A stretch of DNA of 59,642 nucleotides from Candidatus Nanoarchaeia archaeon (GTDB taxonomy: Archaea; Nanobdellota; Nanobdellia; UBA10117), in NCBI GenBank assembly GCA_049969975.1, contig JBMFNW010000002.1, positions 1-59,642 on the forward strand, written 5' to 3'. A model generated the notes under the pieces. That model ran no database searches. It saw nothing but the letters and a program-made list of their open reading frames with translations, and was not told the origin of the DNA. The position numbers and the translations under genes were made by a program. Every line of letters begins with the position of its first letter. Within the stretch, counting starts at the first letter, position 1. Of the stretch, positions 2,316 to 23,657 are shown one piece after another.

Positions 2316-3401
2316 ATGGAGCTAAAAGTACAAAAAGGAAATATATTTTTATACTATCTTTTTGATGTAGCATATGAAATTGCTCTGGAAAAAATTGTAA
2401 AGATGTTCGGAAAAAGGGCAGAAGTTTCGAAGCTCGTTTGTGAAAGAGTAATTCCAAAATATGTACAATATAAGACTGCCCCTTTACTTTTAAGACTTGG
2501 TAAAAGAAAGCTAACTGTGGGTAAAGAAAGTTGGAATGCAATAGTTAAAGCAAAAATATATGATTTTGGAATAATTTCTATTGTTTATCAAATTCCTTTA
2601 AATAAAAATGAAGGCTTAACAAGCATTGCTGCGCGCACAGAAGCTTTGGCAGAAAATGAAGTTTGTCAAAAAGAAGCAGAGGTGGAAGTTAAAAAATTGC
2701 TTGAAGAAATTGCTCCTGCTTTAAAGAGACCACATGCAGATCTTTCTTTTTGGGAAGATTATATTGTAGTTTCTGTTAAAGAGTTTAACACAGAATTGAG
2801 TGGGGATGAAATTTTAATGCAGGCCAGAGATCGCATAGCTAAAATTTTAAGGTGTGAAAAAGAAAAACTAAGTCGAGCTGAACTTGAAAATGCATTAAAA
2901 TATGTTTTAAGTTATTATGAAAATGAGTTTGTAGCAATTGATTGGCAAGCATCTTTTATTTACGATCCAAGACAAAGCTATGATGTGCTGGATGTTTTAG
3001 AATATGCCGTTGCAATGCTTTTAGAGCTTAGAATATATGATGAATTGCTAGATGATATTTTAAATAGAGCATACACAGATCTTTCTAAAAAAATTAAATT
3101 TTATTCTTTTGTGCTAAAAAACCTTATGGCTGCAAAACTAGACATATCCGAAATACTAGATAAAACCACAAATTCGCTAAAATTAATTGGAGATCTTTAT
3201 TTGGCAAAAATTTACAAAGCAGCTTCACAACGTTTTTATTTAGAAGAGCTCAGAAAGTCAATAGATGATAAGCTCAAAGCACTTGAAAGCATTTATGCAA
3301 TGCTTTTAGAACAATCACATAATATTTTATCATTATTTTTAGAAGCTGCAATAGTTTGCCTTTTTATACTTGATATTTTATTTTTGTTTTGGCTAAAATA
3401 G
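2316..3401 (+). CDS. hypothetical protein with C-terminal TM helix, possibly RMD1/DUF155 (COG1723)-like
   Basis: About 360 aa with a soluble body and a terminal helix (LEAAIVCLFILDILFLFWL). The overall motif layout resembles DUF155. This is a weak call from memory only. Confidence 0.4.
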   Translation: MELKVQKGNIFLYYLFDVAYEIALEKIVKMFGKRAEVSKLVCERVIPKYVQYKTAPLLLRLGKRKLTVGKESWNAIVKAKIYDFGIISIVYQIPLNKNEGLTSIAARTEALAENEVCQKEAEVEVKKLLEEIAPALKRPHADLSFWEDYIVVSVKEFNTELSGDEILMQARDRIAKILRCEKEKLSRAELENALKYVLSYYENEFVAIDWQASFIYDPRQSYDVLDVLEYAVAMLLELRIYDELLDDILNRAYTDLSKKIKFYSFVLKNLMAAKLDISEILDKTTNSLKLIGDLYLAKIYKAASQRFYLEELRKSIDDKLKALESIYAMLLEQSHNILSLFLEAAIVCLFILDILFLFWLK

Positions 3402-3403
3402 CT

Positions 3404-4201
3404 ATGAAATTTAAACAAAAATTGGCAGAGAAGACAGGTTTGCCCATACAAATACTTCCAGCCAGCTATCAAATTCTTGGCCATGTTTTGCTGCTAAAGT
3501 TAAGTTCTGCTGCTCAACGTCATGCAAAAGTTATTGCAAAAACAATACTAGAACTTTTTCCCTACATACAAACAGTTGCTCTGCAAAAAGGCATTAGTGG
3601 CGTTTATAGAGTTCCAAAAATAAAAATTCTTGCTGGCAAAAAAGAAACAGAAGTAAGACATAAAGAGCTTGGCTGTGAATTTTTTTTAGATGTGGCAAAA
3701 ATTATGTGGTCTAAAGGCAATCATGCAGAACGAGCAAGGTTAGTTGAAATAGTAAAACCAAATGAAATAATTTTAGATATGTTTGCTGGTATTGGTTATT
3801 GGTCAATACCAATAGCAAAGCACAAGCCTTGTGAAATTTTTGCAATTGAAAAACGAGCTCTAGCCTTTGAATATTTGTGTAAAAACATAAGATTAAATCG
3901 TGTTAATGTTATAGCAATAAAAGGAGATTGTAGGAAAATACTTGAGAATTATTCTTTTCCAAATCCAGACAGGATAATTATGGGCTATTTTCCAGGCACA
4001 CTTAATTTTTTACCATCAGCACTTTCTGTAGCAAAAAAAGGCACGGTAATACATTTTCATGATTTGGCAAAAAACTTGAACGAGCTTTGCAAGCAAGTTT
4101 TGACAACGGCTAAAGGAAAAGTCTGTATAAGTTCTGCAAGAATTGTTAAAGAATATTCAGCATCAAAACAACATTATGTTTTGGATCTTGTTGTTAAATA
4201 G
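3404..4201 (+). CDS. SAM-dependent tRNA methyltransferase or aminocarboxypropyl transferase of the Trm5/Taw2 (Met-10+) family
   Basis: ILDMFAGIGYWSIPIAK SAM-binding motif and the Met-10+ domain layout. The ATG at 3404 lies 3 nt after the upstream stop. Confidence 0.75.
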   Translation: MKFKQKLAEKTGLPIQILPASYQILGHVLLLKLSSAAQRHAKVIAKTILELFPYIQTVALQKGISGVYRVPKIKILAGKKETEVRHKELGCEFFLDVAKIMWSKGNHAERARLVEIVKPNEIILDMFAGIGYWSIPIAKHKPCEIFAIEKRALAFEYLCKNIRLNRVNVIAIKGDCRKILENYSFPNPDRIIMGYFPGTLNFLPSALSVAKKGTVIHFHDLAKNLNELCKQVLTTAKGKVCISSARIVKEYSASKQHYVLDLVVK

Positions 4202-17176: not shown

Positions 17177-17208
17177 AATTTTTAGTTTATTAAATTTTTA
17201 GTTTATTA
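17177..17208. repeat. perfect tandem duplication of a 16-nt unit (AATTTTTAGTTTATTA x2) at a convergent gene junction
   Basis: Read directly from the sequence. The second copy contains the stop codon of the ligase gene. T-rich on both strands, so it may also act as a bidirectional terminator. Confidence 0.6.
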
Positions 17209-18177
17209 AGCCTCTACATTGCATTCTTGTGGTAGTTTGTCAAATCGTAATCTCATAAAAGATGGTGCACGCAAATGAAAGTTTTTAGTATATTCTAAAA
17301 ACTTAACTTCGGCTACATAATAAAGTTTTACCCAAGAGGCATTTTTAAGTTTAAGTTTTGGAAAATAATTTTTATTCGTTTTTATTTTGTTTAACATTTG
17401 ATATAATTGGTTTAATTGAGCTTCGCTAAAACCTGTTCCAACTTCACCAACATGAATTAGTTCGTTGTTTTTAAATTGGCCTAAAATTAGCGAAGCAATT
17501 GGTTTTCTATTGCTAGTATAGCCACAAATTACACAATCTGTTGTTTTAATGTTTTTTATTTTGATCCAAAAAGGCGAACGTTTACTTAATTCATATTTCG
17601 AGACGATTTTTTTAGCTACAACACCCTCCATTTTTAATTTACGTACATATGCCCAAAGCTTTGATCCATTTTGTGTATAAAAAACAGTACGAATTCTTTT
17701 GTTGCCTTGAAATTCTCGCAACAAAGCTTCAAGCTTCGCTTTTCTAGTCAATAAATTTTCAGAAGTGTAATCTTTTTTTCCAATTGCGAGCACATCAAAA
17801 ACATAATATGTTGCAGGCAGTTGACGAGAAAGAAAGTCTATTTTAAGTTTTTGCTCTGTTTGGTCACGAGTTTGAAGTCGCGAAAAACTTGGCAAGCCTT
17901 TTTCATCTAAAACAACAAGCTCCCCATCAAGAATGCAGTCTTTTGGCAACTTTGCAGCCTCTGCTACTATTTCTGGAAATCTATGCTCAAACCATTTGCC
18001 TCTTCTATTTAAAAGTTTAATTTGTGAACCTTTTTTGTAAAGAATTGTGCGCACACCGTCTAATTTTGGCTCAAAAATAAAACCTTTTAGTTTTAAGATT
18101 GATTTATCTCCGAGGCGTGCAAGCATTGGAGAAATTTTTTCTTCGTAAAGCGATTTTTTGTTTTTGTAACTTTTCAT
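17206..18177 (-). CDS. ATP-dependent DNA ligase, LigD ligase-domain type (short, 323 aa)
   Basis: Motif I EPKLDGVR, motif III DGELVV, motif IV YYVFDVL, motif V EGVVAKK, and an OB domain (WIKIK). No DNA-binding domain of the replicative Lig1 type. Confidence 0.85.
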   Translation of the reverse strand: MKSYKNKKSLYEEKISPMLARLGDKSILKLKGFIFEPKLDGVRTILYKKGSQIKLLNRRGKWFEHRFPEIVAEAAKLPKDCILDGELVVLDEKGLPSFSRLQTRDQTEQKLKIDFLSRQLPATYYVFDVLAIGKKDYTSENLLTRKAKLEALLREFQGNKRIRTVFYTQNGSKLWAYVRKLKMEGVVAKKIVSKYELSKRSPFWIKIKNIKTTDCVICGYTSNRKPIASLILGQFKNNELIHVGEVGTGFSEAQLNQLYQMLNKIKTNKNYFPKLKLKNASWVKLYYVAEVKFLEYTKNFHLRAPSFMRLRFDKLPQECNVEA

Positions 18178-18190
18178 AAACTAATGGCTT

Positions 18191-18700
18191 TTATTTTTTT
18201 ATTTCAGCCTCAACTTCTTGTAAGATTCGATTAAAGTTAATTTTAGTCAAATAAAAAAGCTTAACATCTTTCCGAGCTTTAACATATTCTATAAAAGGAT
18301 CTTTTGATTTGAAAGAAATTGTAGCAATTACTTTTTTACTATCTAGAGCTTGCTCAACGAGAGCTTTAAACTTCTCTGAGCGGCACTCCATTAAGCCTAT
18401 TTCATCTATGATAATGAAGTCTGCATTTGAAATCGCCCATTCAAGGGCAGGCAAAGCAATTTTTTCAAAAAGCTCTATGTCGAGCCCATATCTCGAAACA
18501 ACTGCAGGCCTCATTTCGACAGACGCAAAAACACTTTCTTTCTCAGTGTGCAAATCAATTACTTTGAATCCCCATCTTTCACCGTCTTTGCGAATTTCAG
18601 GGGTAATAATTCCACCGTAATTTTTGCCACGAATTACTTTTTGTATCAAAGTCGATTTGCCAGAAGCAGGTGGGCCAGCAATCAAAATATTCTTTTTCAT
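18191..18700 (-). CDS. THEP1-like nucleoside-triphosphatase (NTPase_1 family)
   Basis: Walker A GPPASGKST and Walker B IIIDEIG, 169 aa, GF.V pattern typical of THEP1/MJ1559. GAGGT SD. Its start overlaps the Ku stop (ATGA). Confidence 0.75.
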   Translation of the reverse strand: MKKNILIAGPPASGKSTLIQKVIRGKNYGGIITPEIRKDGERWGFKVIDLHTEKESVFASVEMRPAVVSRYGLDIELFEKIALPALEWAISNADFIIIDEIGLMECRSEKFKALVEQALDSKKVIATISFKSKDPFIEYVKARKDVKLFYLTKINFNRILQEVEAEIKK

Positions 18701-19434
18701 TTTTTACCTCTTATGCTTTGTGCAAGCGCAAGCATTAGATCTTTTGTAGGAGTAATTTTTGGAACTTTTATTTTCTTTTTAATAAGTTCTACCAGTAGTT
18801 CTTTTCTAGCAGATTTATATTTGGAAAGCTCAAAAGGTTTTGTTAAAGCAGACAAAACTTTATTTGCAAGAGAAATTTCTTTTTCGGATAGTTTTGGCAA
18901 ACCGCGAAGTTCTTCAAACTCTGGCTTGCGCACTTCTTCTTCATAATAAAGAGTTGTTAACAAAAGCACTCCTTTGTAATCTCGAATAACTATTAAATAA
19001 TCTTTATCTCGCAAGAAAACTTTTCCAATTCCAACTAAATTTTTATTTGAAAGACATTCTCTAAGGAGTGCGTATGCACGCTCTCCACCTTTTTCAGGAA
19101 GTAAATAGTAGTTTTTTTCAAAAAATATTGGATCTATACTTAAAGGTTCTGTAAATTGTAAAATTTCAATAACTTTAGCCTCGCGAATTGGTAATTTTAA
19201 TTCTTCTTTTTCAAAAAAGACTTTTTTTGTTCCAAGCTCAAGCCCTCTTATAACATCAGTCCAAGGTACAAAATGCTCGCCTTTAGAGCAATAGCGCTCA
19301 TATTTTAGTTTTTGAAAATGTTTTGAACAGTAAAGATGGAATGTTAATTGCTTTGGCTCGGCACAACTAATTAGTTTAACGGGTATTGTAACTAATCCGA
19401 AAGAAATAAAGCCTTTCCAAATCGCTTTTGCCAT
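18697..19434 (-). CDS. ku: Ku protein, bacterial-type NHEJ DNA end-binding protein
   Basis: MAKAIWKGFISFGLVTIPVKL N-terminus, the Y.L.P....ERAYALL motif, and a length of 245 aa. Confidence 0.9.
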   Translation of the reverse strand: MAKAIWKGFISFGLVTIPVKLISCAEPKQLTFHLYCSKHFQKLKYERYCSKGEHFVPWTDVIRGLELGTKKVFFEKEELKLPIREAKVIEILQFTEPLSIDPIFFEKNYYLLPEKGGERAYALLRECLSNKNLVGIGKVFLRDKDYLIVIRDYKGVLLLTTLYYEEEVRKPEFEELRGLPKLSEKEISLANKVLSALTKPFELSKYKSARKELLVELIKKKIKVPKITPTKDLMLALAQSIRGKK

Positions 19435-19435
19435 T

Positions 19436-20860
19436 TTAAAATGTACTCTTTAGCTTGGCTATTGCTGCACCAACTATGTTTTTAGTTATGTCTGGATAAA
19501 ACCATAGCCCTATGACGAGCAACAATAAAATAATAACTAAAAGAACTAAAAGACCATTTGCTTTTGCAAAACCTCTTTTAATCAATTTTCTTTGTGCAAC
19601 TTTTTCTTTGTGCTGCAACTCAGCAGATTTTCGCACATAGTGCTCGAATAGTGCACGCCTGCCTTTTTTCCCAGTCTCGTATTTTTCTTTCGATTTCTCT
19701 TTGAAATTAAGTAATTGTTGATTAAGAGCTTTAAGTGCCCAGCTTACAGCAGTGTTCAAGTCAAAATGCGCATATTCTGAAGTAAATGTTTTCGAGGCAA
19801 GTGCAAGCCTTAAGTGAACAGAGTATTTTTGTCTTTTTGTTTCTTTTTTCTCATATCTTTTTATTTGTACTCGGAAATAGTGCACGCGTTCTCTTATATA
19901 AAGGCGCAATGCTTTCTCATAAAATTCTGCTACTTGTTCTCGTACAGAGTCAAAAAGCTGACCTGGCAATGCTTCACAACCAATAAATTGAATTGGCCAG
20001 TATGCAACACCGCTTGTCTCTATTATTGCTTTCAAAATATCTCTTGTTGTTATTATGCCGATAGGTTTCTTATTTTCTGTAATAACTAAATCAGAAATGC
20101 GATGCTCATAAAGCTCTTTTAACACTTCGCTAAGTGTATCAGATTGCTTCGCAGTAAATAATGGTACGGATGCAAAATCTCCAACAGGCATATCTAGTAA
20201 AAAGTCTTTATCTGCAAGAAATACTTTACTCGGACCTGTTAAAATTTGGCCTTTTGCAGTTCTGCTGCTTTTCTTAAGGCCCTGAAATTTCGATACACCT
20301 TTCGGATATATGTGTTTGTAAAGATCTGTTAAAGAAAATACAGATAAAAGTCTTCCTTGTTTGTCAACAATTGGCGCATGGCTTATTTCTTTTTCTTTAA
20401 AGATATTTATAACATTTCCAAGTCTTGTATTGTATTCAAATGTAATTGGATTTATAGTTGCAATGTCTATACATTTCATTTTTGAAAGTGCTGGAAGTTT
20501 AATAAATGCTGGTAAAATATCACGAGAACGTACCACTCCAATTATTTGGTTTTTCCTTTGCACTGGTAAAATGCAAGGATAGTATTGATAAATTAGTCTT
20601 GCAGCTTCGAGCAAAGATGTTTCGGGATTAACGACTGGTGGAAAACTAGTAAATGTGCCTGCTTTTGCATTAGGATCTAATTTTGACTCTATTAACCTTA
20701 CTCTATCCAGCAAGCCTCTGAATGCTTTTTTGTGTTTCTTATCGAATACTAAGCCATACCTCTCATCTGCAGCAATTAATTTTGCAAGCGCTTGTCTTAT
20801 TGGCTCATCAGCGTCAATTTTCACAAATTTTGTTGACATAACATCTGCTACTGTGGCCAT
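19436..20860 (-). CDS. CBS-domain (about 4 copies) protein fused to an HPF/RaiA-like (ribosomal S30AE) domain and a C-terminal TM anchor
   Basis: Repeated CBS patterns occupy residues 1-290. Residues ~300-395 (IQFIGCEALPGQLFDSVREQVAEFYEKALR...YSVHLRLALASKTFTSEYAHFDLNTAVSWALKALNQQLLNFKEK) follow the beta-alpha-beta-beta-beta-alpha motif order of hibernation factors. The hydrophobic helix GLLVLLVIILLLLVIGLWFY lies near the C-terminus. Confidence 0.6.
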   Translation of the reverse strand: MATVADVMSTKFVKIDADEPIRQALAKLIAADERYGLVFDKKHKKAFRGLLDRVRLIESKLDPNAKAGTFTSFPPVVNPETSLLEAARLIYQYYPCILPVQRKNQIIGVVRSRDILPAFIKLPALSKMKCIDIATINPITFEYNTRLGNVINIFKEKEISHAPIVDKQGRLLSVFSLTDLYKHIYPKGVSKFQGLKKSSRTAKGQILTGPSKVFLADKDFLLDMPVGDFASVPLFTAKQSDTLSEVLKELYEHRISDLVITENKKPIGIITTRDILKAIIETSGVAYWPIQFIGCEALPGQLFDSVREQVAEFYEKALRLYIRERVHYFRVQIKRYEKKETKRQKYSVHLRLALASKTFTSEYAHFDLNTAVSWALKALNQQLLNFKEKSKEKYETGKKGRRALFEHYVRKSAELQHKEKVAQRKLIKRGFAKANGLLVLLVIILLLLVIGLWFYPDITKNIVGAAIAKLKSTF

Positions 20861-20934
20861 GTAAAATCTGTATATTTTCTAGTATAAATATTTTAGCCTT
20901 TTTATGAAAATAATAAAAGAAAGGTCTATTAAAA

Positions 20935-21675
20935 TTATAATTTGTGGTATTCTAACATAGGAAAATTTAGGCTTCTTGTATCAATTGTTGCAAACCACCC
21001 ATCGAGTAATGCTCCTGGATTTATGGTATGTTTTCTGTGTTTGAGTAAAAGATATACCGATCCACTTTCTGGTATGCGAGTAACAATTCCTTTTTCAGGA
21101 TCGCAATAAGTGTAAGATGGCTCGTGATCATGTCCCCTGATCATTACTTTGTAACCTTTCTTATCCATTACTTCAAAATTTTTTCTGTGATCATTTTCTG
21201 TTTTTAATCGAAACCATAAATCCTTTATTTTCTCTGGACAGCCAGGATAACTTGATAAATCACCATCGCATGCACCATGAATAATTATTGTTGGATAGTC
21301 TTTACCAAATTTATCTTTGTCGAGAAAAATGGTATATTGATCTTGTGAATTAACTAGTTTATTAATATACTCCTTAGCAACAGGATCGCTTATTAATTCA
21401 TAATAAAGTTCAAAACGAGTCTTTCCTTGTCTTTTTAATACTTCAGAAGCCATTCTTAAATCGTTTAGAATTGCATGATCATGATTCCCAGGCACTTTAA
21501 TAACTAATTTTTCTGCACTTAGATATTTTTTCTCCAAATCTCTAAATTGATGAATTGTTTTTGTTTGGTCAAAATCCCCCAAGCATATCAACACGTCCAC
21601 GTTTTGAAAGGCCAGAACTTTCTCTAAACCATTCAATTCTGTTCCGTGAAGATCGCCGAATATAGCATATTTCAT
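20935..21675 (-). CDS. calcineurin-like metallophosphoesterase
   Basis: GDLHG, GDFD, GNHD and GHDH motif series. Confidence 0.8.
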   Translation of the reverse strand: MKYAIFGDLHGTELNGLEKVLAFQNVDVLICLGDFDQTKTIHQFRDLEKKYLSAEKLVIKVPGNHDHAILNDLRMASEVLKRQGKTRFELYYELISDPVAKEYINKLVNSQDQYTIFLDKDKFGKDYPTIIIHGACDGDLSSYPGCPEKIKDLWFRLKTENDHRKNFEVMDKKGYKVMIRGHDHEPSYTYCDPEKGIVTRIPESGSVYLLLKHRKHTINPGALLDGWFATIDTRSLNFPMLEYHKL

Positions 21676-21796
21676 TTTACTTGTGGTTTTACTTAGGTGG
21701 TTTTACTTAAGCAGTTAGTTGTACAATAGTATTTGTGTTTAAATTTTTTAATTATTTGCCTCAAACTATGCCGAATCCATGCTCGAATGCCTGCTT

Positions 21797-21818
21797 TTAA
21801 GCCGAGAGAAAGGCTTAA
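21797..21818 (+). promoter_or_regulatory. 7-bp stem hairpin (TTAAGCC-GAGAGAAA-GGCTTAA) in the uL1 leader; candidate L1 autoregulatory element
   Basis: The stem was read directly from the sequence. It lies about 55 nt upstream of the uL1 ATG. Its function is inferred only by analogy with L1 mRNA autoregulation in methanococci. Confidence 0.2.
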
Positions 21819-21870
21819 AAAACCAAATTTTCGTTTTATGTCACCGCTTTGGCGGGAGTCGAAATGTAAA

Positions 21871-22521
21871 ATGGTAGACGAAAACGCGATCCGCGAGGCA
21901 ATAAAGAAATTACGCGCGAGTCCTAAAAGAAAATTTGTTCAAACAGTTGAACTTATTGTTAATTTAAAAGATATTGATGTTAAAAAAGAAGAAGGAAAAA
22001 TCGAAGAACTTTTAGCCCTGCCAAATGGTAGAGGAGAACCAGCAAAAATATGTGCACTTATAGGACCAGAACTTTTGGATTTTACCAAAGGTATTTGCGA
22101 TCGCGTAATTTTAGCAGATGATTTCGAGAAACTAAGCCAAAGAGAAATAAAACGAATAGCTCGCGATTATACTTTCTTTATAGCTCAAGCAAATATAATG
22201 CCTTTGGTGGCAAAAGTTTTTGGTAGAGCACTAGCCTCGAAAGGTAAAATGCCAACACCAAAGTTTGGCCTCATTGTTCCACCAAAATCAAATGTAAAAC
22301 CTCTTGTTGAAAAGTTAAGAAAATCCATAAAATTAATTAGTAAAAAAGCACCAGTAATACAAACAATTGTTGGGAATGAAAAAATGTCAGATGAAGAATT
22401 GATGCAGAATATTATAGCAGTACTAGATTTATTAAAAGCAAAGCTGCCAAATAGCGAGCGCAACATTAAAAACATTATACTTAAATTAACTATGGGTGCT
22501 CCTATAAGTGTAAATTTATGA
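21871..22521 (+). CDS. rpl1: 50S ribosomal protein uL1
   Basis: From the ATG at 21871: MVDENAIREAIKKLRASPKRKFVQTVELIVNLKDID..., a typical uL1. The 46 upstream codons of the ORF-track call look non-coding. Confidence 0.9.
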   Translation: MVDENAIREAIKKLRASPKRKFVQTVELIVNLKDIDVKKEEGKIEELLALPNGRGEPAKICALIGPELLDFTKGICDRVILADDFEKLSQREIKRIARDYTFFIAQANIMPLVAKVFGRALASKGKMPTPKFGLIVPPKSNVKPLVEKLRKSIKLISKKAPVIQTIVGNEKMSDEELMQNIIAVLDLLKAKLPNSERNIKNIILKLTMGAPISVNL

Positions 22522-22546
22522 ATAAAGTTTGCATGAGTGTGAAGCT

Positions 22547-23362
22547 ATGAAAGAAGCTGTGAAAAAATCAAAAGCTTTGAAAGAAAAAGCAGCAAAAGTT
22601 CATGAGCTAGCAAGTCTTTTGACAAAATATAAAAGTATTGGGGTTTTAGATTTAACAAATTTGCCAGCAAAGCAGCTTAAAGCAACAAGAGCCAAAGTTG
22701 CTGAAAAAATTTTGTTTTATTTTGCTCGCAAATCCATTTTGCTACGTGCGCTTGAAGAAGCCAAACGCGAAGAACTTAAGCAACTTAAACCTTATATTGA
22801 AAGTACAAATTGTGCACTTTTACTTTCGAACTGCGATTCTTTTGAAATGTTTAGGCTTTTAAAAGCAAATAAGCAAGCAACTTCAATAAAGCCGGGCCAA
22901 ATAGTTCCATTTGATATTATTGTGCCTGCAGGACCAACACCTTTTGCACCAGGTCCAATAACATCAGAATTTGCGCAATTAGGTTTAAAAACAAAAGTAG
23001 AGGCTGGCAAAATCGTGATTCGTGAGCCAGCAGTTATTGTTAAAAAAGATCAACCAGCTAGTCCTCTTGCAGCAAGCATGTTATCACGCTTAGGCATAAA
23101 ACCTATAGAAATAGCAGCTTTGCCAAAATACGTATTGGAAAATGGCTTGCTATATGCAGCAAGCATTCTTGATGTAGATGTTAATAAATATGCACAAGAT
23201 TTAAAAACTGCTGTCTTGAACGGAGTAAAGTTGGCGAGCGAAATTGGTTTAGTTTCGCCAGAAAATGCACAATTCCTGTTAATGCTCGCAGTGTGGCAAA
23301 GTGCCGCACTCCAAAACAAATTAGAAAACATAGCACAGAAGGTAACGGAACAGAAGGTTTAA
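22547..23362 (+). CDS. rpl10: 50S ribosomal protein uL10 (acidic protein P0)
   Basis: P0-like N-terminal domain. Located between uL1 and P1. Confidence 0.85.
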
Positions 23363-23363
23363 A

Positions 23364-23657
23364 ATGGAAACGATATACGCTGCACTTTTGTTGCATAAGG
23401 CCGGAAAGCCAATAGAGGAGAGCTCAATAGAAGCTGTACTAACTGCAGCGGGTCTTACGCCTGATAAGGCACTTATCAAAGCCACAGTTACTGCGCTTAA
23501 AGATATTGATATTGAAAAAACCATAAAAGAAGCCTTAGTAGCACCCGCCGCAGCAGCGCCAGCACCAAAAGAAGAAAAGAAAGAAGAAAAGAAAGAAAAA
23601 GAAGAAAAGAAAACAGAAGAAGAAGCTGCAGCAGGCTTAAGTGCGCTATTTGGCTAA
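23364..23657 (+). CDS. rpl12: 50S ribosomal stalk protein P1 (L12e)
   Basis: [15 protein letters not shown]..., an Ala/Pro hinge, an EEKKEEKK acidic tail and the terminal GLSALFG. Confidence 0.9.

What the first reader, a model, noticed from the sequence alone, without database searches (positions are those of the whole stretch)
19436..20860. Membrane-anchored protein combining four CBS domains with an HPF/RaiA-like ribosome-hibernation domain
Residues 1-290 read as two CBS pairs. Residues ~300-395 follow the HPF/YfiA pattern closely: beta1 IQFIGCE, helix SVREQVAEFYEKAL, strands FRVQIK / YSVHLRLAL / TFTSEYA, then helix DLNTAVSWALKALNQQLLNFKEK. A basic linker and one TM helix follow. S30AE-family hibernation factors are classically bacterial or plastid proteins. 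As far as I recall, archaeal ribosome hibernation has only recently begun to be characterised and may involve CBS-type proteins, but I cannot verify the details. An adenylate-sensing CBS module fused to an HPF-like domain and tethered to the membrane would be an attractive energy-sensing ribosome-silencing device.
Basis: inference. Interest (0 to 1): 0.65.

Follow-up and report, generated by a model that had tools for sequence, protein, structure and literature searches.

The report
Membrane-anchored archaeal ribosome hibernation factor (HibA/AHA)
This gene encodes a member of the recently described archaeal HibA/AHA ribosome-hibernation factors (four CBS domains plus an HPF/RaiA-like domain); the unusual part is that here it has fused with a tiny membrane protein that its relatives encode separately just downstream.

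Summary

The protein aligns over its full length with Pyrococcus abyssi HibA (PDB 9SR9 chain H: E 6e-18 alone, 1e-32 as a family profile). That family of hibernation factors was published in 2025-2026 as HibA/AHA. A model of the C-terminal domain alone retrieves only bacterial and plastid HPF/RaiA/YfiA/pY structures in its top 34 matches.

What is not in those papers is the membrane tail. In 12 related DPANN locus types (Nanoarchaeia/Woesearchaeota) a 45-48 aa single-helix protein is encoded as a separate ORF, usually overlapping the stop codon of the HibA gene or of a standalone HPF gene. In the window and one 66%-identical relative, the two are fused in frame. The fused tail is under purifying selection (dN/dS about 0.2). 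An independent contig supports the junction.

Most likely function (inferred): an adenylate-binding ribosome silencer held at the membrane. Verdict: known family, new tail-anchored variant with a conserved small membrane partner. Interest is moderate.

The parts
19436..20860 (-). Whole ORF: tail-anchored HibA/AHA-family protein, 474 aa plus stop
   Evidence: ORF list. Full-length alignment to P. abyssi HibA 9SR9_H: residues 4-390 against 6-375, E 5.9e-18 alone and 1e-32 with the family profile.
20006..20860 (-). CBS tetrad (residues 1-285; four CBS domains at about 1-58, 64-120, 127-185 and 222-283)
   Evidence: PF00571 x4, E 3.7e-38. The AF2 model matches CBS tetrads bound to archaeal ribosomes (SriA 9ZNF_4, E 4e-19) and AMPK-gamma. 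Invariant G-h-h-[ST/R]-x-x-D-type strands are seen at G108-D114, T178-D179 and T271-D274.
20201..20305 (-). Long low-confidence loop (residues 186-220) at the CBS3/CBS4 boundary, at the position of the 'PTC loop' of P. abyssi HibA
   Evidence: pLDDT <50 for residues 186-220. K191 and G194 are invariant in the family. P. abyssi HibA has its PTC loop at residues 190-207 of CBS3 (PMC13324472). Positional equivalence comes from the alignment. The function is inferred.
19679..19999 (-). [quoted passage not shown]
   Evidence: PF02482 E 0.0046 for the window protein, best family member 4e-6. Profile against PDB: top hit is Listeria HPF 8UU4_w (E 0.11). For the domain-only AF2 model (pLDDT 75), the top 34 Foldseek PDB hits are all HPF/RaiA/YfiA/pY, with TM-score 0.47-0.75 normalised to the target.
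19574..19678 (-). Clade-specific basic C-terminal extension (residues 395-429, ending KLIKR)
   Evidence: Net charge +9 over residues 395-437. Conserved in all 13 close relatives (R402, K425, L426, R429). Present in relatives down to 36% identity and in standalone HPF proteins, and absent from more distant HibAs.
19551..19580 (-). Fusion junction between the HibA reading frame and the reading frame of the former small gene
   Evidence: The window reads AAAAGA-GGTTTTGCAAAAGCAAATGGT-CTTTTA. L002 reads AAAAGA-AAATGAAAGGATATTCTAAAGGAAACAGT-CTTTTG, with a TGA stop overlapping an ATG. An 8-nt length difference puts the two frames in register. A Logan contig of run X1 covers 19300-19595 with no differences.
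19439..19573 (-). Module derived from the small membrane protein (residues 430-474): TM helix 436-455 (nt 19496-19555) and a conserved juxtamembrane segment YPxxTKxxVGAxxAKxK
   Evidence: Aligns with standalone 45-48 aa ORFs from 12 related loci; L, G-L-(W) and T-K are invariant. dN/dS is about 0.21 between the window and L001 tails. Kyte-Doolittle 3.23.
20883..20890 (-). TATA-like box (TATTTATA) about 23-30 nt upstream of the ATG; possible own promoter giving a short-leader mRNA
   Evidence: Read directly from the sequence. This is an inference and was not tested.
17206..19434 (-). Tightly packed downstream genes on the same strand: Ku (18697-19434), THEP1-type NTPase (18191-18700) and ATP-dependent DNA ligase (17206-18177)
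   Evidence: Pfam: PF02735 5.6e-36, PF03266 7.7e-44, PF01068 1.6e-34 plus PF04679. There is 1 nt between the HibA stop and the Ku ATG, and a 4-nt Ku/NTPase overlap. Synteny is conserved in L001-L006 and L010.

Best explanation
The gene encodes a HibA/AHA-family ribosome hibernation factor of a DPANN archaeon (Nanoarchaeia/Woesearchaeota, hot-spring metagenome).

Mechanism inferred by homology to P. abyssi HibA and H. volcanii AHA:
- The C-terminal HPF/RaiA-like domain (288-394) sits in the mRNA/tRNA channel of the small subunit and blocks the A and P sites.
- The N-terminal CBS tetrad binds the large subunit and inserts its long loop near the peptidyl-transferase centre, or swings to uL5 or the L1 stalk. 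This holds an idle 70S ribosome together and protects it.
- The CBS tetrad binds adenine nucleotides, so silencing could be linked to energy status.

Specific to this lineage (shown at the sequence level): the clade's basic C-terminal extension has been joined in frame to a small single-pass membrane protein that relatives encode as a separate, translationally coupled gene immediately downstream. The product has one C-terminal TM helix. Its likely topology is N-in, with about 20 conserved residues outside the cell.

Inferred consequence: HibA, and the ribosomes it silences, are held at the cytoplasmic membrane. The persistent gene pairing in relatives suggests that the unfused HibA/HPF proteins of this clade also work together with the small membrane protein.
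For: Shown:
- Four CBS domains plus an HPF-like domain.
- Full-length homology to the solved HibA chain 9SR9_H and to 9L96_a. PMC13324472 identifies 9SR9-9SRF/9T7H as HibA-ribosome complexes.
- The domain-only model retrieves only HPF/RaiA/YfiA/pY structures in its top 34 hits.
- The CBS part matches ribosome-bound CBS tetrads (SriA, Dri) and AMPK-gamma.
- HibA/AHA function is established by cryo-EM, deletion phenotypes, in vitro translation inhibition and ITC (AMP Kd 12 uM) in PMC13324472 and PMC12934967.

The fusion is real:
- The junction DNA differs from the split form by a frame-restoring length change.
- The same fusion occurs in a 66%-identical protein from another assembly (P0002/L001) and in a JGI fragment (P0018).
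- Tail dN/dS is about 0.21.
- An independent Logan contig spans the junction without differences.

The small ORF is a genuine conserved gene linked to the HPF domain:
- It lies directly downstream of HibA in L002/L006, L003, L007, L008, L009, L011, L017 and L019.
- It lies one gene further away in L013, and elsewhere in the operon in L004/L010.
- It lies directly after standalone HPF-like genes in L012 and L015.
- It is absent after the outgroup HibAs L018 and L020, which lack the basic extension (alignment).

Against: - No experiment has been done on this protein or its clade.
- The window protein itself is below Pfam's gathering score for PF02482 (18.1 against 23.7 bits). The profile-to-PDB hit to HPF is weak (E 0.11).
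- Whether a 41-residue linker can reach the membrane from a ribosome-bound HPF domain was not modelled.
- In the N-in topology forced by the fusion, the small protein exposes almost nothing to the cytoplasm. Three standalone versions start directly with the TM helix. How unfused HibA would contact it is therefore unclear.
- The published work saw no clear effect of AMP or ATP on ribosome binding, so energy sensing remains a hypothesis even for the characterised members.
- The fused form is rare. None of the 150 best cluster representatives aligns past residue 429.
Confidence: 0.78

Rival explanations
1. Membrane sequestration rather than membrane parking. The anchor, or in relatives the small partner protein, keeps HibA away from bulk ribosomes during growth. 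HibA then acts only after release, through proteolysis in the basic linker, internal initiation that makes two products, or a nucleotide-dependent change.
For: The HibA authors themselves propose that nucleotide binding may regulate interaction with a 'sequestering partner'. An in-frame TTG (L426) lies just upstream of the former small-gene start and could still give a separate peptide (sequence; inference). The linker is basic and predicted with low confidence (pLDDT <50 at 393-405 and 416-433), so it is a plausible protease target.
Against: There is no evidence of cleavage or of internal initiation. A covalent fusion kept under purifying selection in two diverged genomes is more simply read as a constitutive anchor.
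Confidence: 0.15
2. The fusion is an artefact or a recent inactivating lesion (an assembly or sequencing error, or loss of the stop codon). The functional state is two separate proteins, as in relatives.
For: The split arrangement is the majority (12 locus types against 2 fused). MAG assemblies can carry indels in A-rich runs such as AAAAGAAAATGA.
Against: The same in-frame fusion is found in a 66%-identical orthologue from a different assembly, with a different junction sequence, and in a third, JGI-derived fragment. Tail dN/dS is about 0.21. An independent contig of run X1 matches the junction exactly.
Confidence: 0.05
3. The small hydrophobic peptide is not an anchor. It is a membrane-active effector (for example a depolarising, type-I-toxin-like or holin-like peptide) that lowers the energy charge, and HibA responds to that drop. 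The gene pairing would then reflect a shared dormancy programme, not physical contact.
For: It is very small (45-48 aa) and has a single highly hydrophobic helix. It is translationally coupled to a hibernation factor. It sits in an operon that in half the genomes also carries Ku and a ligase, which are stationary-phase repair functions in bacteria. This reading is speculative.
Against: Fusion to a 430-aa cytoplasmic protein is tolerated and conserved, which is unexpected for a pore-forming toxin. No antitoxin-like element was seen. There are no family matches.
Confidence: 0.05
4. The tail is a class III (type IV pilin-like) signal peptide, following JGI's 'ComGC' label. A prepilin peptidase would cut the fusion and release HibA.
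For: JGI names two of the family 'competence protein ComGC'. Many standalone versions have a K-G immediately before the hydrophobic stretch.
Against: Three standalone members (L012, L013, L019) start directly with the helix and have no leader or KG. The K-G is not kept in either fused version (K-A-N-G and A-N-G-N). Only about 20 residues follow the helix. No Pfam pilin family reaches significance.
Confidence: 0.02

Closest known systems
HibA (Pyrococcus abyssi PAB0961 / Thermococcus TK1186; PDB 9SR9-9SRF, 9T7H), also named AHA (Haloferax volcanii HVO_2384)
   Same: [quoted passage not shown] Alignable end to end. Archaeal.
   Different: The window protein carries about 35 extra basic residues after the HPF domain and then a TM helix plus a 20-residue tail (474 aa against 392). 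Identity is low: 23-29% for cluster representatives of similar rank. Neither paper mentions any transmembrane or membrane-associated form (0 occurrences of 'transmembrane'). The library search for HPF + archaea + transmembrane returned nothing relevant.
Bacterial/plastid HPF, RaiA/YfiA and pY/PSRP1 (Pfam PF02482, Ribosomal_S30AE)
   Same: Same fold, by Foldseek: top 34 hits, for example 5MMJ_y, 8UU7_w, 4HEI_A, 4V8I. Weak but consistent sequence similarity.
   Different: It is below the Pfam gathering score, with 10-19% identity in the structural alignments. It has an N-terminal CBS tetrad. It lacks the long-HPF dimerisation domain. It belongs to the separate archaeal branch described in PMC12934967.
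YqjD / ElaB / YgaM (bacterial C-tail-anchored, membrane-bound ribosome hibernation proteins)
   Same: A ribosome-inactivating factor held at the cytoplasmic membrane by a single C-terminal TM helix. These proteins tether ribosomes to the membrane in stationary phase (bioRxiv 10.1101/2024.08.16.608256).
   Different: Unrelated sequence and mechanism. YqjD-type proteins bind the 50S tunnel exit and have no HPF or CBS domain. The Pfam scan of the window protein at E <= 10 returned only CBS and S30AE. This is an analogy, not homology.
Archaeal CBS-tetrad hibernation factors without HPF (Dri, SriA-D, ARC-A/P)
   Same: The CBS tetrad is the best structural match to SriA on the M. acetivorans ribosome (9ZNF_4, E 4e-19) and also matches Dri (9E7F_3).
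   Different: Those proteins lack the HPF domain. Dri has two tetrads.

Membership tests
HibA / AHA archaeal hibernation factors | N-terminal module of four tandem CBS domains (two Bateman modules) | tested here: met
   PF00571, 4 stretches, E 3.7e-38. The AF2 model shows four beta-alpha-beta-beta-alpha units. Foldseek gives TM-score up to 0.83 to CBS tetrads.
HibA / AHA archaeal hibernation factors | [quoted passage not shown] | tested here: met
   Secondary structure E290-293, H300-321, E326-335, E346-354, E358-366, H368-394. Foldseek top 34 hits are all HPF-family. PF02482 is hit by 13 of 13 family members.
HibA / AHA archaeal hibernation factors | Full-length sequence homology to an experimentally characterised member | tested here: met
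   9SR9_H (P. abyssi HibA): E 5.9e-18, residues 4-390 against 6-375, and E 1e-32 with the family profile. 9L96_a: E 6e-21 and 9e-36.
HibA / AHA archaeal hibernation factors | Long insertion loop in CBS3 (the PTC loop) | tested here: inconclusive
   A 35-residue low-confidence insertion (186-220) lies at the equivalent position, and K191 and G194 are invariant. Its sequence is not alignable with P. abyssi 190-207, and its function was not tested.
HibA / AHA archaeal hibernation factors | Binds the 30S mRNA/tRNA channel and the 50S, and inhibits translation | not testable with these tools
   Needs biochemistry or cryo-EM. Inferred from homology only.
HibA / AHA archaeal hibernation factors | Adenine-nucleotide binding by the CBS module | not testable with these tools
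   Conserved G-h-h-x-x-x-D strands in CBS2, CBS3 and CBS4 are compatible with binding.
Pfam PF02482 Ribosomal_S30AE (bacterial HPF/RaiA) | Score at or above the curated gathering threshold (23.7 bits) | tested here: not met
   18.1 bits, E 0.0046. TIGR00741: 19.2 bits against a 40.9 cut-off. Precomputed PF02482 hits are on record for two close relatives, P0002 and P0008; the P0002 hit is marked weak. The window protein is therefore a divergent archaeal branch of the fold, not a canonical S30AE member.
Pfam PF02482 Ribosomal_S30AE (bacterial HPF/RaiA) | HPF fold | tested here: met
   Foldseek probability 1.00 and TM-score 0.47-0.75 (normalised to the target) for the 34 HPF-family hits, which include HPF, YfiA and pY.
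C-tail-anchored membrane proteins | Single TM helix near the C-terminus, no N-terminal signal sequence, bulk of the protein cytoplasmic | tested here: met
   The only hydrophobic segment is 436-455 of 474 (Kyte-Doolittle 3.23). The N-flank is +9 and the C-flank +2, so N-in is expected. The N-terminus MATVADVMSTKF is not hydrophobic. Actual insertion was not tested.
YqjD/ElaB/YgaM family | Sequence homology to the family | tested here: not met
   No Pfam family other than CBS and S30AE at E <= 10. This is a functional analogy only.
Type IV pilin-like / ComGC (label given by JGI to the small ORF) | Class III signal peptide: charged leader, [KR]-[GA] cleavage motif, then a hydrophobic helix | tested here: not met
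   The leader and KG are absent in L012, L013 and L019, and altered in both fused forms. No significant pilin family hit.

The most novel reading that the evidence does not exclude
In one DPANN clade, HPF-domain hibernation factors, with or without the CBS tetrad, have co-evolved with a basic C-terminal extension and a dedicated 45-48 aa membrane protein. Dormant ribosomes would therefore be parked on, or controlled from, the cytoplasmic membrane. The window's fused gene is the 'Rosetta stone' that reveals the partnership. This would be the first membrane-coupled HPF-type hibernation system and an archaeal counterpart of bacterial YqjD/ElaB/YgaM.
Probability: 0.4. Interest if true: 0.65.

Novelty: new variant of a known kind. 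Interest (0 to 1): 0.45.

Why it matters
The CBS-HPF core places this organism within the newly recognised, near-universal HPF-based hibernation system of archaea. That is confirmatory, not new.

The added value is the membrane link. There is a conserved gene pair, HPF-domain factor plus mini membrane protein, across at least 14 locus types, and it has fused in the window's lineage. This gives a concrete, testable hypothesis about where hibernating ribosomes are stored in ultra-small DPANN cells. It also bears on how HibA availability might be controlled, which the HibA authors left open as an unidentified 'sequestering partner'.

The finding also points to a class of very small ORFs that gene callers miss (uncalled in L015).

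Finally, the co-operonic Ku and ATP-dependent ligase genes suggest a combined 'dormancy kit' of ribosome preservation plus end-joining repair. This echoes reported pull-downs of HibA with DNA recombination and replication proteins in Thermococcales.

Tried and rejected
1. A single-sequence phmmer of the C-terminal 147 aa against the PDB found nothing meaningful: one de novo designed protein at E 0.39. The family profile put Listeria HPF first, but only at E 0.11. The fold search was needed to settle the domain.

2. The full-length model against the PDB was dominated by CBS tetrads, and HibA itself did not appear. The Foldseek library stops at 2026-04-08, probably before the release of 9SR9. 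The domain-only model solved this.

3. Pilin/ComGC reading of the small ORF: rejected. See the membership test.

4. Artefactual fusion: rejected.

5. Programmed frameshift or readthrough as a general way to make the fused form in split genomes: not supported. Most small ORFs are in the -1 frame with an ATGA overlap typical of termination-reinitiation. Only L007 has the small ORF in frame, after a stop plus two codons. No slippery heptamer was seen.

6. Pfam on the small ORFs gave only compositional, sub-threshold hits.

7. The census of 150 cluster representatives found no other HibA-like protein extending past query residue 429. The fusion therefore appears confined to the window's sub-clade.

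8. No RNA-seq evidence was sought, because only four hot-spring metagenome DNA runs hold the sequence.
Full report
**Observation**

The minus-strand ORF 19436-20860 starts with ATG and encodes 474 aa.
- Pfam finds four CBS stretches (PF00571, E 3.7e-38).
- Pfam also gives a sub-threshold match to Ribosomal_S30AE/HPF over residues 304-390, covering profile positions 12-87 of 88 (PF02482, E 0.0046, 18.1 bits against a cut-off of 23.7).
- NCBIfam's yfiA/HPF model TIGR00741 gives E 0.0012.
- Residues 395-437 carry a net charge of +9.
- Residues 436-454 (GLLVLLVIILLLLVIGLWF) are the only strongly hydrophobic stretch (Kyte-Doolittle mean 3.23).

**Family**

A word-indexed search of 5.8 billion proteins found 13 close relatives (47-99% identity). 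They are labelled Candidatus Nanoarchaeia or unlabelled. One is named by JGI 'CBS domain-containing protein/ribosome-associated translation inhibitor RaiA'.

All 13 sequences of the family alignment A1 (the window protein and 12 of those relatives) hit PF02482 when scanned individually, the best at E 4e-6. In alignment A1 the HPF-like region is the most conserved part (73% mean column identity in A2).

**Fold**

An AlphaFold2 model built from the family alignment has mean pLDDT 73. [quoted passage not shown]

A model of the C-terminal 147 residues alone (pLDDT 75) was compared with the PDB. The first 34 matches are all HPF, RaiA/YfiA, pY/PSRP1, MPY or RafH chains. They have probability 0.99-1.00 and TM-scores of 0.47-0.75 normalised to the target. 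dsRBD-like folds appear only below them.

The full-length model matches CBS tetrads best: SriA on the Methanosarcina ribosome (9ZNF_4, E 4e-19), Sulfolobus SSO3205 with AMP, AMPK-gamma, and Dri.

**Identity with a known system**

- The family profile aligns end to end (profile 2-387 against chain 4-375) with PDB chain 9SR9_H, E 1e-32.
- It also aligns with 9L96_a, a 406-aa protein of acidic composition deposited as 'CBS domain-containing protein', E 9e-36.
- The window protein alone gives E 5.9e-18 and 6.1e-21 respectively.

The entries 9SR9-9SRF and 9T7H are the HibA-ribosome complexes of Madru et al., Nat Commun 2026 (PMC13324472). That paper describes the following:
- It is present in 47% of archaeal genomes.
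- The N-domain occupies three positions on the 50S, one of which inserts a 'PTC loop' (residues 190-207).
- The CBS module binds AMP, ADP and ATP with Kd values of 12, 65 and 113 uM.

Souza et al. (PMC12934967) independently describe the same family as AHA in Haloferax volcanii. They report two bound AMP molecules, 3,160 homologues in 17 phyla, and 926 standalone archaeal HPF proteins.

The window protein is thus a member of a published family. The window protein also has a 35-residue low-confidence insertion (186-220) at the position of the PTC loop.

**The membrane tail is a gene fusion**

In alignment A1 only the window protein and P0002 (66% identity) carry the tail. The rest end at ...KL[IV]KR(K).

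Genomic context shows why.
- In L002 and L003, a separate 47-48 aa ORF follows the HibA gene and overlaps its stop codon (ATGA or a 1-nt overlap). In L004 the ORF lies after the ligase gene.
- Its translation (for example MKGYSKGNSLLILLIIILILLVIGLWFYPNLTKTIVGAAIAKIKNIIS) aligns with the window tail RGFAKANGLLVLLVIILLLLVIGLWFYPDITKNIVGAAIAKLKSTF.
- At the DNA level, the window has 21 nt where L002 has 29 nt between the shared AAAAGA and CTTTT[AG] anchors. This removes the stop and start codons and brings the frames into register.
- L001 has a different junction that is also in frame.

Evidence that the fusion is genuine:
- It occurs in two diverged genomes from different assemblies, and in a third, JGI-derived fragment (P0018).
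- The 44 tail codons give dN 0.26 against dS 1.27, a ratio of about 0.21.
- A Logan contig of a 2017 hot-spring metagenome run spans 19300-19595 with no differences.

**The small ORF is a conserved partner of the HPF domain**

A scan of GTDB species genomes and further look-ups gave the following pattern.

| Arrangement of the small ORF | Loci |
|---|---|
| Directly downstream of HibA | L002/L006, L003, L007, L008, L009 (with a second small TM ORF in between), L011, L017 (36% identity), L019 (39% identity) |
| One gene further downstream | L013 (42% identity) |
| Directly after standalone HPF-like genes that lack the CBS tetrad | L012 (4-nt overlap), L015 (2 nt after the stop; not called by the source annotation) |
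| Elsewhere in the operon, after the ligase | L004/L010 |
| Fused in frame to HibA | window, L001 |
| No such ORF within 1.5 kb | L018 (34% identity), L020 (28% identity) |

The two negative loci are more distant HibAs that lack the long basic extension.

The 14-sequence alignment keeps L, G-L-(W) and T-K invariant, with the motif GLW[FY][YF]P-x-x-TK.

The word-indexed search found only six standalone members plus weak 64-65 aa relatives. No Pfam family matches.

Among the 150 best representatives of 1.84 billion clusters, HibA-like proteins are at most 436 aa, apart from one of 573 aa with an N-terminal extension. None aligns past query residue 429. The fused form is therefore rare.

**Mechanism**

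Shown: the domain composition, the homology, the fold, the reality of the fusion, and the conserved gene pairing.

Inferred from the characterised homologues: the HPF domain blocks the decoding channel, the CBS tetrad engages the 50S, and adenylates bind to it.

Inferred from the anatomy:
- HibA has no signal peptide and must be cytoplasmic, so the fused helix is N-in. The flanking charges, +9 on the N side against +2 on the C side, agree with this.
- That makes this a C-tail-anchored protein.
- In P. abyssi the HibA C-terminus sits at the mRNA exit channel, so the clade-specific basic extension of about 35-40 residues could lead out of the ribosome to the membrane.
- The closest functional analogue is the bacterial YqjD/ElaB/YgaM class of C-tail-anchored proteins that tether and inactivate ribosomes (bioRxiv 10.1101/2024.08.16.608256). 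It is unrelated in sequence.

An unresolved point concerns the unfused systems. In the N-in orientation the small protein exposes few or no residues to the cytoplasm, and three members start directly with the helix. How it would contact HibA is not obvious. Sequestration and release, or a shared-regulon explanation, remain possible.

**Context**

The gene is the first of a tightly packed minus-strand series: HibA-TM, Ku (PF02735), a THEP1-type NTPase (PF03266) and an ATP-dependent DNA ligase (PF01068 plus PF04679). A calcineurin-like phosphoesterase gene lies upstream. A TATA-like TATTTATA lies about 23-30 nt before the ATG.

The gene is divergent from the L1-L10-P1 ribosomal protein operon in nearly all relatives where that flank is held. 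Ku and the ligase are present in about half of the relatives. The NTPase and DUF192 genes are nearly always present.

**Novelty and score**

The CBS-HPF architecture is already known (preprint October 2025, papers 2026).

The tail-anchored fusion and the conserved small membrane partner are not mentioned in either family paper ('transmembrane' occurs 0 times). They were also not found in the searchable library.

I rate this as a new variant of a known kind, with interest 0.45.

Noticed in passing
window 17206-19434 (-); also L001 4887-7107, L002 5399-7666, L003 5460-7203, L004 1556-3302: Ku and an ATP-dependent DNA ligase (an NHEJ-like pair, uncommon in archaea) lie in the same tightly packed gene string as the hibernation factor, with a THEP1-type NTPase. 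The arrangement is conserved in about half of the related genomes. It suggests a combined dormancy and repair operon, and echoes the pull-downs of HibA with DNA recombination and replication proteins cited in PMC13324472.
   Followed up: partly
L012 3456-3956 with 3953-4090; L015 2501-3094 with 3096-3236: Standalone HPF/RaiA-like proteins (166 and 197 aa, no CBS tetrad) in Woesearchaeota-type contigs carry the same basic C-terminal tail. The same small TM ORF follows them. In L015 that ORF was not called by the source annotation.
   Followed up: yes
L007 847-2124 and 2131-2274: Here the small TM ORF is in the same reading frame as HibA, separated only by the stop codon and two codons. Readthrough of a single stop would reproduce the fused protein seen in the window.
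   Followed up: no
L009 4765-4935 and 4937-5077: Two consecutive small single-helix ORFs follow HibA. The first (56 aa, MLRGSNMKAQGKSRKWIIIVVIILIIAAIWYYTGG...) looks like a diverged paralogue of the second.
   Followed up: no
window 21787-23657 (+) against 19436-20860 (-): The hibernation-factor gene is divergently placed next to the L1-L10-P1 ribosomal stalk operon. This holds in the window and in nearly all relatives where that flank is held (not L013), including the standalone-HPF loci.
   Followed up: partly
window 20935-21675 (-): A calcineurin-like metallophosphoesterase gene sits between the L1 operon and HibA in the window. It is absent at that position in L001 and L003, and L002 has an unrelated 280-aa ORF there.
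   Followed up: no
L003 7678-8712: An ORF with a faint LAGLIDADG_3 hit lies next to, and overlaps, the Kae1/TsaD gene. It may be a homing endonuclease or an intein-derived insertion.
   Followed up: no
window 19727: A contig of run X1 reads G where the window has A. This is the third position of codon 378 (Ala), so it is synonymous and points to strain-level variation in the sample.
   Followed up: partly
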